DNA of 63,502 nt, filler included, from Collodictyon triciliatum (lineage: Eukaryota), in NCBI GenBank assembly GCA_043381765.1. It is 27 parts of 27 records of this genome, joined end to end, with 100 filler letters (N's around TTAATTAATTAA, not from the genome) between each part and the next. Parts side by side here need not be neighbours in the genome. Positions count along the whole stretch, not along the records: positions 4,732 to 6,992 come from JBHJMP010009186.1; 26 more parts are not named here. One strand, given 5' to 3'. A program made the translations under genes and the position numbers. Within the stretch, counting starts at the first letter, position 1, and each line of letters opens with the position of its first letter. Of this stretch, positions 3,171 through 6,992 are shown piece by piece. Under the pieces are notes generated by a model. That model was not told the origin of the DNA and ran no database searches. It saw only the letters and a list, made by a program, of their open reading frames with translations.

Positions 3171-4731
3171 CGGAGAAAAATCCTCAAAGGAGGATAAAAA
3201 GGCAGAGTGAGAAAAGTCTGATTGAATAAAAACTTAACAGATTAATTGCAGCTATTTGTGTGTATTTATGAAAATGCCGAATAGTAAAAATGGATGTGAA
3301 TATTTAATTTGATTTTATTTGATTATTTCATAACATCATTTTGCAATAAATCCCAGCACGATTACGCGCAATAACTCGGCATCATTCATCTTCCTTCGTA
3401 GTCAATCTCGCTTCGAGAAACTGATTCTCCATCAATCATTCAAACATGATAAACTGCGATAAAGGTAATGCGGCCCACCAAACACCTCTTGAAAAGCAAA
3501 GACTGTGTTGTACACCTTCGAGAAAAGTCATAACCAGTTCTCTGCTCTACTAATCTCTGGGAAGGAAATAAAGGCAGCCAACCGCGGAGTGTGATGGAAG
3601 TCCGAAGCCACTGTCGAAAGGATGTGACTTTTTTATCGGTGAATCCTGATTGCAACCTCGGACTTTGGTATCAACAGAAGAAATGGGGAAGAAATGAATC
3701 TGTTTTTACAAAGACTGCGCACTCCTATCTCGCCTAAAGTATATTCATTTGTTAGACATGGCATCAGAAAGCTGCATATTTATTGAACGGCCGAGTTTGG
3801 ACAGAGCTGCAAGACGTATTGTATCCCTGTAAAAGGCGTATTCTTTCCAATCAAATGCAAGCGAATGAAACCTTCGGCAGAAAAATGAGTAACAAAGTCC
3901 TTTTTTTTTCTTTTTTCTTTTTTTTGGAGGAGGAAGAAAATGACTCTTTTCTGTTTGGGATTGGCAAAATAACCTTTCTTGCAGATATCCCAAAGATGCT
4001 GACATCCAGACTTTTCCTTCCAATACAAAACGAGTTCCATCGAACAAGAAACTTATTCGCACCAATAGAGAAAGAAAGAAGAAAAAGGGAAAAAAGACAC
4101 TATTAACGTAAAAAAATAGCATTTGTAGGATTCTTGCATGACATTCAGTTCCAATAAACCCATTACCGACTTTCAAACCAATAAAGTGTTGCGGATGACA
4201 TGGGCGAATAATCGGGTATTACCATCAAACAGGTAGCTTCGCTGACAACAGCCAGTAAAAAGAGACGGAATCGGTACCGAACCTCCTTTTTTTGAAGATA
4301 TCGGGATAGCCTTGCAATCACCCAGGATGTTGGAGCCTTCTTTTCACACCAACCGGATTTCATCAGCTTGATTATGTGATGCTGCGATGAATGATACTTT
4401 GCGAGTCTCGCACTTTATCTAAAACAGAGTCTGACAATATTAACATAACATGCAGCAATCCAACCTCGTGTGCTCATTCAGATAAGGTCGCTTCCACCAA
4501 CTTATTTCTGCTGGCGTCGTTTGCCTACCAGTCAGACTTAAACTCAACCCATCTGCTGCTTATCCAACGCACTTCAATCGGTCTATCTTCTGGCTCAATA
4601 CATTGATATTTTGCCAATCCAAGAAGGTAGCNNNNNNNNNNNNNNNNNNNNNNNNNNNNNNNNNNNNNNNNNNNNTTAATTAATTAANNNNNNNNNNNNN
4701 NNNNNNNNNNNNNNNNNNNNNNNNNNNNNNN

Positions 4732-4858
4732 AGTGCTAGCCTCTCCACGGTAGTGTCTTCTCCTACTCGCGTTTGCTCTCTCCCATGCGCTCCCATCCCG
4801 CCCCTTTGTATGGCATAACCTCGCTACACTTTGAATCGAATAAAGGAAAAAAGAAAAA
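4732..4858 (+). mobile_element. 3' end of a dispersed A-tailed repeat (LINE 3' end or SINE-like), cut by the contig start
   Basis: Closely matches 13197-13314 and the reverse complement of 56244-56362. Ends CTTTGAATCGAATAAAGG followed by an A-rich tail. Confidence 0.85.
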
Positions 4859-6097
4859 GACAATCCAAACAAGTACACTCCATGTCTGATTTACATGAAT
4901 CACATTTTTGAGGACATAGGAACCCAAAACTGTTTCAACCAATCTCTATAAGAACTAACAATATACCGTGTCATATTACTCCAGATACTGCATGTTTGAT
5001 AGATATATTAGTATTAACTGGAAAAACATCATTAATGAAGAATATATCAGGATTTGAAGAGACCCTATGGGATAAGTTCTTTGAAATGAAGAAGAGAGTC
5101 TTTCATCAAAAAGACTACAATTTTAAATACATGATACAAACAGATGGCTTGGCGGTGTGATTATTGTTTGAAAAGAAAGGTATTTCAAATTCAAAATCCA
5201 AATATAATCAAAAGAACCAAGAATATGTTTATATAGATGAACTTTCCGATGAGCTGTTATCTTTATTGATGGCAAAAAAATATAGTTGGGATGGATGCAG
5301 GCAAGTTTAATTTTGTTTACATGGTGGATGAGACATATAATAAATTACGTTACCCGGCACACCAAAGAAGACATGATAGCAAATCTCTTAAAAATGACAA
5401 AATACTCTTGTGCAAGAAAAAAAAGTGCAATGCTTCAGGGATGTGCATGGCAATAGGTTTACAAAGTGCTGTTTCTTTTGGTGCTAAGACTTTTGAAGAG
5501 AATCAGCAGTTTGAGGCATCAAGAGTATCTTTAATCGATTTAGAGACAGAACTGAGTAAACATAATTCATGCACGGTCGATTATGAACAATTTCGAAAAC
5601 ATGTATCTATAGAATCAAGATTCCGGATAGAACTTTCCGGATTTTATGAACAAGTGACTTTTTCCGAAAGATGACATGGAGACAGTATGTTAATACAAAA
5701 AGAAGTGAACAGTTGTTTATGGACCGAATCGAAAAGACATTTGGCAAGGATGTTGTACTGGCGTATGGAGACTGGAGCAGAAAATCTCTGATGAAGCATT
5801 TTATGCCAACAATCGGAAGAGGATTACGAAAAATGCTATCCAAACGTTTTGAAACAGTTAGTGTAGATGAATATTAGAACCTCCAAGATGTGCTGCAACT
5901 GCGAAAAAGAACTGGAATATATGACATCGAAAGGAAATTCAAAAAAAAGGTATATAGATGTCTCATGTAAAGAATGTAATCGCTCATAGAGTAAACAAAG
6001 TGTTTTCTTGACAAGAGACTTAAACAGCGCTAATAATATACTCAACAAAGTTTTTCCAATTCTTCAAAATATGCCTACACCTTCCTCTAAAAAATAG
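4859..6097 (+). pseudogene. Fanzor1 (eukaryotic TnpB-like RNA-guided endonuclease), copy A, disrupted and 5' truncated
   Basis: Across frames: NPNKY..PCLIYMN, FKYMIQTDGLAV*LLF, RuvC-I VGMDAGK, YGDWS...MPTIGRGLRKMLSKRF, RuvC-II VDEY, TSKMCCNC zinc finger, RuvC-III LTRDLNSANNI. Several stops and frameshifts. Homologous to 54797-56243. Confidence 0.9.
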
Positions 6098-6214
6098 ACT
6101 GTCGGGTCTTTCCTGGCTGCCTTCACCACCACACAATCTTTGTTAAAAAGTGGTGAGACCTTGGATGTTAGCGCACCAGGTTTACTGATCAAAAGATTGA
6201 TATACCCCTTCTAG
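6098..6214 (+). ncRNA. Candidate Fanzor omegaRNA scaffold and element right end, copy A
   Basis: Non-coding stretch conserved with 54670-54787 (minus strand). Similarity stops at CTAG 6211-6214. Nested stems CCTGG/CCAGG and TCACCAC/GTGGTGA plus a terminal hairpin. Confidence 0.7.
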
Positions 6215-6659
6215 ATAATCTTTTGACCAGGTGATTGGGCATCCAGAATGAGCCGGTTAATTCCTTCGGTTATAATTTCCACAATTGTTGTTGGGCGAAG
6301 AGCTGGTTCCACGAACAAGCCCACGCCAAACAAATCCAAATTCCCACAGTTGTGGTCTGCCCGCCCTATAAAAATCCGCAACCCGACGAGTTCGCCCGAT
6401 CGCAACATAACTTCTGAGACAAAAGAGAAATCTGGGAAGGCCAAAAGCCGCTCGAGCACGACCACACAACGCCACCAACGCGTTATCCCCAACGCCGTTG
6501 GCCACCCTTATGCCTGCACCCATCTCACTTCGCCATGGGCTACAGCTGAGCGCAACTAACCGGAATATAACTGAGTGGGATGAGAGAAAACAAGGAAAGG
6601 CGAGAGTATTAAGCCCAAACAAAGCACAGTTCTACCCATCCAGAAGGCAGCTACCCAAG

Positions 6660-6992
6660 AAACAAAACATTACAAAACATTACAAAACATTACAAAACAT
6701 TACAAAACATTACAAAACATTACAAAACATTACAAAACATTACAAAACATTACACAACATTACAAAACATTACAAAACATTACAAAACAAAAACAAAACA
6801 AAACCAAACCAAACCAAACCAAACCAAACCAAACCAAACCAAACCAAACCAAAACAAACCAAAACAAACCAAAACAAACCAAACCAAAACAAACCAAAAC
6901 AAACCAAAACAAACCAAAACAAACCAAAACAAACCAAAACAAACCAAAACAAACCAAAACAAAACAAAACAAAACAAAACAAACCAAAACAA
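6660..6992. repeat. Compound microsatellite (ACAAAACATT)n, (AAACC)n, (AAAAC)n
   Basis: Direct inspection. Similar simple repeats terminate most contigs in the window. Confidence 0.95.

What the first reader, a model, noticed from the sequence alone, without database searches (positions are those of the whole stretch)
4859..6214. Fanzor1 RNA-guided nuclease family present as two diverged copies (second copy 54670-56243, minus strand)
Seen: two homologous intronless broken ORFs on different contigs, with TDG..VS, G.D.G, YGD(W/C)S, D(E/G)..TS, a CxxC...CxxC zinc finger and RD.N(S)A.NI. Established: this is the Fanzor/TnpB RuvC layout, in which the RuvC-II glutamate is displaced to the DExxTS motif. 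Some lesions are complementary: copy A has TGA at 5158 where B has TCA, and B has VDGF where A keeps VDEY. Inference: a consensus would restore much of the C-terminal ~450 aa. Finding two copies in 27 small contigs suggests a multi-copy family that may include intact members.
Basis: partly seen in the sequence, partly recalled or inferred. Interest (0 to 1): 0.88.

Follow-up and report, generated by a model that had tools for sequence, protein, structure and literature searches.

The report
Two dead Fanzor1 nuclease gene copies
Two small contigs of a eukaryotic draft assembly each carry a broken, front-truncated copy of a Fanzor1 gene, a transposon-borne RNA-guided DNA cutter of a well-known family, so this is ordinary decayed mobile DNA.

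Summary
Contig A (4732-6992, +) and contig B (54203-56452, -) share about 1.36 kb at 86% identity. Both align to an intact 648-aa environmental protein, P0002, at 59-60% identity. In the PDB, P0002 matches only Fanzor1 structures by sequence, and its predicted fold matches them first.

Both copies are dead. A has 4 frameshifts and 3 stops. B has 4 frameshifts, 1 internal stop and an early stop, and has lost the alternative RuvC-II glutamate. No lesion is shared. dN/dS is 0.70 and differences are spread evenly over codon positions. Both lack the N-terminal 145-217 residues, and an unrelated repeat with an A-rich 3' end abuts their 5' ends.

The copies and P0002 form a separate lineage, sister to Fanzor1 genes on giant-virus contigs. 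One such viral relative lies in a TIR-bounded Tc1/mariner-type element. Neither a guide RNA nor intact copies could be shown. This is a new, dead member of a known kind, of low interest.

The parts
4732..4851 (+). 3' end of an unrelated dispersed repeat ('R'). It ends in ...TTTGAATCGAATAAAGG plus an A-rich run and abuts the 5' end of copy A at the start of the contig.
   Evidence: It is 90% identical to B 56363-56244 and 94% identical to 13197-13313. In the alignment the sequences diverge right after the A-run.
4856..6148 (+). Fanzor1 pseudogene copy A, equivalent to residues 218-647 of the intact relative P0002. It has frameshifts near 4916, 5281, 5657 and 5875, and in-frame stops TGA 5158, TAG 5987 and TAG 6095. 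RuvC-I Asp is GAT 5294 (in DAG, not DPG), the alternative Glu is GAA 5869, and RuvC-III Asp is GAC 6017.
   Evidence: Frameshift-aware alignment to P0002 gives 258 of 428 aligned codons identical. Codons were checked. A keeps 47 of the 52 family-conserved columns it covers.
6149..6217 (+). 3' tail of copy A, from the end of the P0002 alignment to the end of A/B similarity. This is the presumed right end of the element and the place where a guide-RNA scaffold would end. No function was shown.
   Evidence: A/B similarity ends at ...TATACCCCTTCTAGATAAT, with no poly-A. RNA fold z-score is -0.63. This stretch is the least conserved part of the A/B alignment, at 78%.
54800..56239 (-). Fanzor1 pseudogene copy B, equivalent to residues 146-624 of P0002. 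It has a TGA stop at 55822, frameshifts near 55777, 55676, 55327 and 55239, and an early stop at 54799-54797. RuvC-I Asp is GAC 55582 (in DAG). W523 is changed to Cys (TGC 55102). The alternative Glu is lost (GGA 55006). RuvC-III Asp is GAC 54859.
   Evidence: 278 of 471 aligned codons are identical to P0002. Codons were checked. B keeps 42 of the 54 conserved columns it covers.
56019..56243 (-). 225-bp coding segment present in B only (P0002 residues about 146-217). In A, repeat R adjoins the gene directly at this point.
   Evidence: blastn break points are, the P0002 alignment, and the junction sequences.
54667..54799 (-). 3' tail of copy B up to the end of A/B similarity. It contains the decayed last ~24 codons and the presumed right end.
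   Evidence: Alignment. RNA fold z-score is -1.35. The consensus fold of the two tails has 38 pairs, only 2 with a change on both sides.
56244..56452 (-). Repeat R (209 bp, running to the contig end) abutting the 5' end of copy B.
   Evidence: 90% identical to 13107-13312 over 209 bp.
13107..13312 (+). Third copy of repeat R, on a contig with no Fanzor sequence. It shows that R is an independent dispersed repeat.

Best explanation
These are two decayed paralogous insertions of one Fanzor1 element in a eukaryotic genome. Fanzor1 is the eukaryotic and giant-virus branch of the TnpB/Cas12 RuvC nucleases.

Inferred from the family: when intact, the gene would have made a protein of about 650 aa. 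That protein binds a guide RNA transcribed from the 3' end of its own element and cuts matching DNA. It uses a RuvC triad made of the Asp of the DPG motif, an alternative Glu six residues before the zinc finger, and the Asp of the RDxN motif.

Shown here: both copies are now non-functional. Each has 4 frameshifts and at least one in-frame stop, none of them shared between the copies. B has also lost the catalytic Glu. Neither contig holds the N-terminal 145-217 residues, because an unrelated repeat with an A-rich 3' end abuts the gene and the contigs end inside that repeat.

Inferred from the private lesions and near-neutral divergence: the two copies descend from one sequence that was open over the stretch they share, and they have drifted about 13% apart since.

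Shown by tree and loci: the lineage (A, B and P0002) is sister to Fanzor1 genes on giant-virus contigs. At least one of those viral genes sits in a TIR-bounded Tc1/mariner-type transposon. Inferred: the window's element was moved by a transposase of that kind, and exchange between virus and host is a plausible origin.
For: Homology:
- P0001 finds P0002 at E 1.3e-86.
- 1155 cluster representatives match at E <= 1e-3, and 303 at E <= 1e-10.
- The only PDB sequence hits at E below 0.4 are Fanzor1. For P0002 all 3 hits at E <= 0.01 are Fanzor1.
- The P0002 model (pLDDT 76.3, pTM 0.73) has Fanzor1 chains as its top 7 Foldseek hits.

Decay:
- Lesions are mapped. A/B differences comprise 16 indels, 13 of them not multiples of three, and 176 mismatches in 1342 aligned bases.
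- dN/dS is 0.70 (bootstrap 95% CI 0.50-1.01) over 397 codon pairs. Differences by codon position are 50/57/61.
- A keeps 47 of 52 and B 42 of 54 columns that are at least 90% conserved in 45 intact relatives. B has lost E555 and W523. Both have P365A, while DPG is present in 156 of 157 intact relatives from the fetched loci.

Separate loci: the flanks differ beyond 6217 in A and 54667 in B.

Lineage:
- A+B has support 99 and joins P0002 at support 100. This group is sister, at support 95, to a 10-row clade that includes viral contigs.
- A ~33-aa insert is found only in A, B and P0002 among 47 rows.

Viral and transposon context of relatives:
- 431 of 594 pattern matches in IMG/VR encode relatives, many of them on contigs labelled GVMAG.
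- Paralogue pairs within one viral contig share 1.9-2.4 kb.
- L083 carries 33-bp inverted ends, at 3627-3659 and 6917-6949, around a DDE_3/HTH transposase (E 1.5e-15) and the Fanzor gene.

Literature (passages only): the rearranged glutamate and the DPG motif (PMC10711439; PMC10530073). Giant-virus Fanzor1 with an IS630/Tc1/mariner transposase, and a host-genome fragment at 80% nucleotide identity (PMC11398304).
Against: - Pfam's TnpB-type zinc-ribbon model (PF07282) scores only 15.7 bits against a cut-off of 26.3. Pfam alone would therefore not have named the copies.
- dN/dS is somewhat below 1, so part of the A-B divergence may date from a time when the copies or their sources were still under selection.
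- Neither the transposase nor terminal repeats are in the window, so the carrier transposon is inferred from a sister-clade relative only.
- No significant RNA structure was found in the 3' tails.
- The missing N-terminal part might lie beyond repeat R on other contigs. 'Truncated' then means 'not on these contigs'.
- The host organism was not identified.
Confidence: 0.9

Rival explanations
1. The copies are remnants of an integrated giant virus (an endogenous viral element), not of a transposon resident in the host genome.
For: Most relatives that could be fetched lie on IMG/VR contigs, many labelled GVMAG and up to 267 kb long. Integrated giant viruses that carry Fanzor1 elements and share them with the host are described in PMC11398304 (passages).
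Against: Each copy is flanked by a dispersed repeat that also occurs without Fanzor sequence (13107-13312), and by microsatellite-rich DNA like the rest of the window. No other virus-like ORF lies on either 2.25-kb contig. A, B and P0002 sit on their own long stem (length 0.83) outside the clade that holds viral contigs. No IMG/VR locus is more than 47% identical to P0002.
Confidence: 0.07
2. The gene is functional and only looks broken, because of sequencing errors, introns, programmed frameshifting or a variant genetic code.
For: The contigs are small, from what looks like a fragmented draft. Some Fanzor genes have introns (PMC10530073, passages).
Against: The eight frameshifts (four per copy) lie inside stretches that align colinearly to P0002 with no inserted sequence, so they are not introns. 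A code change cannot mend frameshifts. B has lost the catalytic Glu and 11 other conserved residues. Substitutions are spread evenly over codon positions. The N-terminal third is absent from both contigs.
Confidence: 0.02
3. The two copies are alleles or an assembly duplication of a single locus.
For: Both have repeat R in the same orientation at their 5' end.
Against: They differ at 13% of aligned bases and by 16 indels and a 225-bp segment. Their 3' flanks are unrelated beyond the end of the element.
Confidence: 0.01

Closest known systems
Fanzor1 RNA-guided endonucleases with solved structures: Spizellomyces punctatus SpuFz1 (8GKH), Parasitella parasitica PpFz1 (9CF0) and Guillardia theta GtFz1 (9CER)
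   Same: They are the only significant PDB sequence matches and the top 7 structural matches of the closest intact relative. They share the RuvC-I Asp, the alternative Glu just before the CxxC zinc finger, and the RDxN RuvC-III motif (alignments).
   Different: Only 18-21% identity in the structural alignments. The window copies are pseudogenes that lack the N-terminal third. Both have DAG instead of DPG, and B has Gly in place of the Glu.
Fanzor1 elements of giant viruses carried with an IS630/Tc1/mariner transposase, including Fanzor-only and fragment forms and a host-genome fragment (Chlamydomonas endogenous giant virus, PMC11398304, passages read)
   Same: The sister clade contains IMG/VR viral contigs. 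Relative L083 has the same layout: a DDE_3 transposase and Fanzor1 between 33-bp inverted ends. Decayed host-genome fragments of such genes are already described in that paper.
   Different: The window lineage (A, B, P0002) is a separate branch with its own ~33-aa insert. No transposase or inverted ends are on the window's contigs.
Prokaryotic TnpB (IS200/IS605, IS607) and Cas12f
   Same: RuvC fold with an inserted zinc ribbon. Weak Pfam PF07282 match and weak structural matches (for example 8H1J, E 1.5e-4, TM 0.20-0.31).
   Different: The match is below Pfam's cut-off. The family is much longer (634-656 aa). The RuvC-II Glu is in the alternative position, not the canonical one (PMC10711439).
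Fanzor2 (Acanthamoeba polyphaga mimivirus Fanzor2, 9B0L)
   Same: Alternative glutamate, and occurrence in giant viruses.
   Different: It ranks only 39th in the fold search (E 4.5e-4, TM 0.21-0.27). The family studied here has the Fanzor1-type size and fold.

Membership tests
Fanzor1 | Significant sequence similarity to experimentally characterised Fanzor1 proteins | tested here: met
   B read-through (P0001): PpFz1 E 2.3e-7 and SpuFz1 E 5.5e-5, with all other hits at E >= 0.4. P0002: GtFz1 2.1e-28, PpFz1 2.7e-24, SpuFz1 3.7e-23, and nothing else at E <= 0.01.
Fanzor1 | Fanzor1 fold | tested here: met
   Tested on the closest intact relative P0002, not on the broken copies. The AF2 model has pLDDT 76.3. 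The top 7 Foldseek PDB hits are all Fanzor1 (E 1e-25 to 1e-22, TM 0.55-0.67), with a large gap to Cas12, TnpB and Fanzor2.
Fanzor1 | RuvC-I catalytic Asp within a DPG motif (near-exclusive in Fanzors, PMC10711439) | tested here: not met
   The Asp is kept in both copies (GAT 5294, GAC 55582). The motif, however, is DAG in both (GCA at 5297 and 55579). DPG is present in 156 of 157 intact relatives and in 45 of 45 rows of the alignment.
Fanzor1 | Alternative RuvC-II Glu six residues before the first CxxC | tested here: inconclusive
   A keeps it (GAA 5869), but a frameshift follows two codons later, near 5875. B has GGA (Gly) at 55006. The residue is present in 45 of 45 intact relatives.
Fanzor1 | CxxC...CxxC zinc finger and RuvC-III Asp (RDxN) | tested here: met
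   C562, C565, C587, C590, R603, D604, N606 and N610 are kept in both copies.
Fanzor1 | Complete open reading frame of about 600-650 aa including the N-terminal part | tested here: not met
   A covers residues 218-647 with 7 breaks. B covers 146-624 with 5 internal breaks plus an early stop. tblastn finds no N-terminal part anywhere in the window.
Fanzor1 | Conserved structured guide RNA (omega/fRNA) at the 3' end of the element | tested here: inconclusive
   Fold z-scores are -0.63 and -1.35. Only two sequences were available, and 2 of 38 pairs have a change on both sides. The 3' tail is the least conserved part of the alignment.
Fanzor1 | Location inside a eukaryotic or viral transposon (terminal repeats, transposase) | tested here: inconclusive
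   No transposase or matching ends are in the window, and the left part of the element is not on the contigs. A sister-clade relative (L083) lies in a Tc1/mariner-type element with 33-bp inverted ends.
Fanzor1 | RNA-guided DNA cleavage with a target-adjacent motif | not testable with these tools
   This needs biochemistry on an intact member.
TnpB / Cas12f (Pfam PF07282 Cas12f1-like TNB domain) | Score at or above Pfam's gathering cut-off | tested here: not met
   15.7 and 14.1 bits against a cut-off of 26.3. For intact relatives, P0003 scores 15.7 bits and the other three scanned (P0002, P0004, P0006) have no match.

The most novel reading that the evidence does not exclude
A, B and P0002 represent a distinct Fanzor1 sub-lineage, marked by a long stem and a private ~33-aa insert after RuvC-I. 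It would be resident in a cellular eukaryote and sister to giant-virus-borne Fanzor1s. Intact, still mobile copies of the P0002 type would then survive elsewhere in this genome or in close relatives. That would give a fresh case of Fanzor exchange between giant viruses and a host, and one more natural nuclease to test.
Probability: 0.25. Interest if true: 0.35.

Novelty: new member of a known kind. Interest (0 to 1): 0.15.

Why it matters
It matters little by itself. Fanzor1 genes are known in thousands of variants across eukaryotes and giant viruses, often in many copies per genome (PMC10530073, passages), and decayed host-genome fragments are already described (PMC11398304, passages). The result is useful for annotation: these stretches should be masked as transposon pseudogenes. 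There is also a modest lead. The closest intact relative, P0002, belongs to a branch that was not seen on the viral contigs fetched here.

Tried and rejected
- **Whole-genome search for more copies:** no genome is held for this window.
- **Earlier notes of this scan:** none on this genome or on this sequence.
- **Public sequencing runs:** 18 rows hold a part of copy B. The best share of sampled words is 0.22, and no row holds half or more. No RNA holder is listed.
- **Rfam at gathering thresholds over the whole window:** 0 matches.
- **Pfam and NCBIfam on the copies:** only sub-threshold matches. The intact relatives carry a precomputed label PF26935.1, which the local Pfam copy did not return, so I cannot say what it is.
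- **Retrocopy hypothesis** (5'-truncated copies inserted into an A-rich tail): rejected, because there is no poly-A at the 3' end of either copy.
- **R junctions at two positions:** whether these reflect two independent insertions of R, or one insertion followed by a 225-bp deletion in A, could not be decided.
- **Right end against L083:** the window's right end does not resemble the inverted ends of L083.
- **Solo right ends:** none elsewhere in the window.
- **Host taxon:** the two protein-atlas look-ups on neighbouring contigs gave only LIM and GPS families with animal-leaning but weak taxon hints. The host is left unnamed.
- **Supplementary tables of the Fanzor papers:** closed, so I could not check whether P0002-like sequences are already catalogued there.

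Full report
**Layout of the window.** The window is a string of 27 small contigs of about 2.25 kb each, joined by N spacers. The finding concerns contig A (4732-6992, gene on the + strand) and contig B (54203-56452, gene on the - strand). No whole genome is held for the window, so everything below rests on these contigs and on public relatives.

**Observation.**
- blastn of A against B gives 85.7% identity over 1378 columns, A 4855-6217 against B 56018-54667.
- A separate 120-bp block just upstream is 90% identical, A 4732-4851 against B 56363-56244.
- B has 225 bp (56243-56019) between these two blocks that A lacks.
- A global alignment of the main block has 176 mismatches in 1342 aligned bases (112 of them transitions). 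It has 16 indels, 13 of which are not multiples of three.
- The codon-level claims are exact: TGA at 5158 in A against TCA in B, and GAA (Glu) at 5869 in A against GGA (Gly) at 55006 in B.
- tblastn finds no third copy in the window.

**What the gene is.**
- Pfam gives only a sub-threshold match to the TnpB/Cas12f zinc-ribbon domain PF07282 (15.7 bits, cut-off 26.3).
- A read-through of copy B with X at its three stops (P0001) finds two Fanzor1 proteins in the PDB: PpFz1 at E 2.3e-7 and SpuFz1 at E 5.5e-5. Every other hit has E >= 0.4.
- In the 5.8-billion-protein collection it finds five intact proteins of 634-656 aa. The best is P0002 (648 aa, E 1.3e-86).
- In the exhaustive representative library it finds 1155 clusters at E <= 1e-3 and 303 at E <= 1e-10.
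- P0002 matches only Fanzor1 chains in the PDB: GtFz1 2.1e-28, PpFz1 2.7e-24, SpuFz1 3.7e-23.
- An AlphaFold2 model of P0002, built on a 16-row alignment, has pLDDT 76.3 and pTM 0.73.
- The model's seven best Foldseek hits are Fanzor1 structures (E 1e-25 to 1e-22, TM 0.55-0.67). Cas12 variants, TnpB and Fanzor2 follow only at E >= 2e-6 with TM <= 0.32.
- The family is therefore Fanzor1.
- I could not measure whether the three acidic residues superpose on a RuvC site, because model coordinates are not exposed.

**Catalytic layout.** Passages of PMC10711439 and PMC10530073 define the Fanzor hallmarks. These are a DPG motif at RuvC-I, and a RuvC-II glutamate moved to six residues before the first CxxC of the zinc finger. 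Against 45 intact relatives, 62 alignment columns are at least 90% conserved.
- A keeps 47 of the 52 such columns it covers. B keeps 42 of 54.
- Both keep D364, the four cysteines, and R603, D604, N606 and N610.
- A keeps E555. B has Gly there and Cys for W523.
- Both have Ala for P365 (DAG instead of DPG). DPG is present in 156 of 157 intact relatives from the fetched loci. Two further changes, E391D and N506D, are also shared by A and B.

**State of the copies.** I aligned P0002 to each contig with a frameshift-aware dynamic programme.
- Copy A corresponds to residues 218-647 (window 4856-6148), with 258 of 428 aligned codons identical. It has four frameshifts (near 4916, 5281, 5657, 5875) and three in-frame stops (TGA 5158, TAG 5987, TAG 6095).
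- Copy B corresponds to residues 146-624 (56239-54800), with 278 of 471 codons identical. It has four frameshifts (near 55777, 55676, 55327, 55239), one stop (TGA 55822) and an early stop at 54799-54797.
- Over 397 codon pairs, dN is 0.145 and dS is 0.207. The ratio is 0.70 (bootstrap 95% interval 0.50-1.01). Differences fall 50/57/61 on the three codon positions.
- That is the pattern of mostly neutral decay after the two copies separated, perhaps with a small remnant of earlier constraint.
- The frameshifts lie within colinear alignment to P0002 with no inserted sequence. Introns or a variant genetic code therefore cannot rescue the frames.

**The 5' ends.**
- The shared 120-bp block is not part of the gene. 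It is the 3' end of a dispersed repeat, which I call R. R ends in ...TTTGAATCGAATAAAGG followed by an A-rich run.
- R occurs again at 13107-13312, on a contig without any Fanzor sequence (90% identical to B, 94% to A). Its tail motif recurs at 51674-51702, 51732-51752 and 45763-45786.
- An AATAAA followed by an A-run suggests a retroposon 3' end. That is my inference and was not tested.
- R adjoins the gene at residue ~146 in B and at ~218 in A, in the same orientation, and both contigs end inside R.
- Two histories fit. R may have inserted twice. Alternatively it inserted once before the duplication, and A later lost 225 bp next to the junction. A short similarity between the R tail and the gene near the A junction fits either history.
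- The N-terminal part of the gene may lie beyond R on other contigs. It is not in this window.

**The 3' ends.**
- A/B similarity stops about 70 bases after the last aligned P0002 codon, at ...TATACCCC(T/C)TCTAG(A/T)TA(A/G)T, with no poly-A. Beyond that point the flanks are unrelated. The copies are therefore separate loci and not retrocopies. This point is the likely right end of the element.
- In Fanzor and TnpB systems the guide-RNA scaffold ends at this boundary. That is family knowledge from passages of PMC10530073.
- Here the last ~220 bases fold no better than shuffled controls (z -0.63 and -1.35). The two-sequence consensus fold has only 2 of 38 pairs with changes on both sides. This stretch is the least conserved part of the alignment, at 78%.
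- A guide RNA is therefore neither shown nor excluded.

**Relatives and context.**
- Pattern scans found 496 relatives among 598 candidate stretches in JGI metagenome contigs. They found 431 among 594 in IMG/VR viral contigs.
- Many of the viral contigs are labelled giant-virus MAGs and reach 267 kb.
- 157 of the 160 loci have an intact ORF of at least 450 aa that hits P0002.
- Paralogous copies within one viral contig share 1.9-2.4 kb, that is the gene with short flanks.
- In L083, 33-bp inverted ends at 3627-3659 and 6917-6949 enclose the Fanzor gene and a divergently oriented 343-aa DDE_3/HTH transposase (Pfam E 1.5e-15). A second contig (L001) shares exactly this 3.3-kb unit at 96% identity.
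- I built a tree of 47 rows: the two copies with X at breaks, 27 database proteins, and 18 locus ORFs left after merging those at least 75% identical.
- It puts A with B (support 99), then P0002 (100), on a stem of length 0.83. This group is sister, at support 95, to a 10-row clade that includes viral contigs L082 and L084 and the L001/L083 type.
- This was the quick IQ-TREE search, and several long rows were flagged, so I rely only on these near branches.
- A ~33-aa insert after RuvC-I, with low model confidence, is present only in A, B and P0002.
- No IMG/VR locus exceeds 47% identity to P0002.

**Comparison with the literature.**
- Fanzor1 genes associated with Tc1/mariner and other transposons are established, as is their occurrence in many copies per genome, up to 122 (PMC10530073, passages).
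- Giant-virus Fanzor1 elements with an IS630/Tc1/mariner transposase are described in PMC11398304 (passages). So are Fanzor-only forms, fragments, and a host-chromosome fragment at 80% nucleotide identity.
- Earlier notes of this scan on other genomes report similar dead Fanzor1 remnants. I did not test those.
- I recall that the original description of Fanzors is Bao and Jurka 2013, and that the SpuFz1 structure comes from a 2023 Nature paper. I did not read either here.

**Verdict.**
- What is there is a pair of dead, front-truncated (or interrupted) Fanzor1 copies of a lineage close to giant-virus-borne elements, embedded in host repeats.
- The host was not identified. Neighbouring contigs carry LIM, GPS-motif, ankyrin, WD40 and integrase ORFs.
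- Whether the genome holds more copies or intact ones could not be tested.
- Interest is low. The most novel reading still open is that intact P0002-type copies of this separate sub-lineage are alive in this or a related organism.

Noticed in passing
window 4732-4851, 56244-56452, 13107-13312; tail motif also at 51674-51702, 51732-51752, 45763-45786: A dispersed repeat ('R') of at least 209 bp. It ends in ...CACTTTGAATCGAATAAAGG plus an A-run, which looks like a retroposon 3' end. It abuts both Fanzor copies and also occurs alone. Its full length and type are unknown because the contigs end inside it.
   Followed up: partly
window 14734-15861 (-), with a neighbouring ORF at 14210-14731 (+): An intact 375-aa ORF with an integrase core domain (Pfam rve, E 4.7e-10), on its own 2.26-kb contig. 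This is another mobile element, of a type not determined.
   Followed up: partly
window 37691-39736 (-): A 681-aa ORF made of very regular WD40-like repeats. It runs open to the contig end.
   Followed up: no
window 26369-27454 (-): A LIM-domain ORF (Pfam LIM, E 1.1e-27) on a contig of 52% G+C, against about 35% for most of the window. The composition differs markedly from the neighbouring contigs.
   Followed up: partly
window 31355-32497 (+) and 36652-37242 (-): An ORF with a GPS (GPCR proteolysis site) motif followed by a likely membrane span, and an ankyrin-repeat ORF. These are eukaryotic host-type genes and give only weak hints about the host taxon.
   Followed up: partly
window 41027-42307 (-): Several overlapping long ORFs made of a repeated peptide unit (...RRSLLHT...), which implies a tandem DNA repeat of about 1.3 kb.
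   Followed up: no
L083 3627-6949 (same unit in L001 1617-4949): On a 173-kb IMG/VR contig, a 3.3-kb unit with 33-bp inverted ends holds a DDE_3/HTH transposase and an intact 634-aa Fanzor1. A second contig shares exactly this unit at 96% identity.
   Followed up: partly
L106/L125, L088/L091, L096/L152, L131/L157: Pairs of Fanzor1 paralogues on the same viral contig share 1.9-2.4 kb at 73-89% identity. In three of the four pairs this includes about 180-220 bp downstream of the gene, which is a candidate guide-RNA region in those viruses.
   Followed up: no
P0002-P0006: The protein collection labels these intact relatives with Pfam PF26935.1, but the local Pfam-A scan returned no such family for the four of them scanned (P0002, P0003, P0004, P0006). 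The accession may be newer than the local copy.
   Followed up: no
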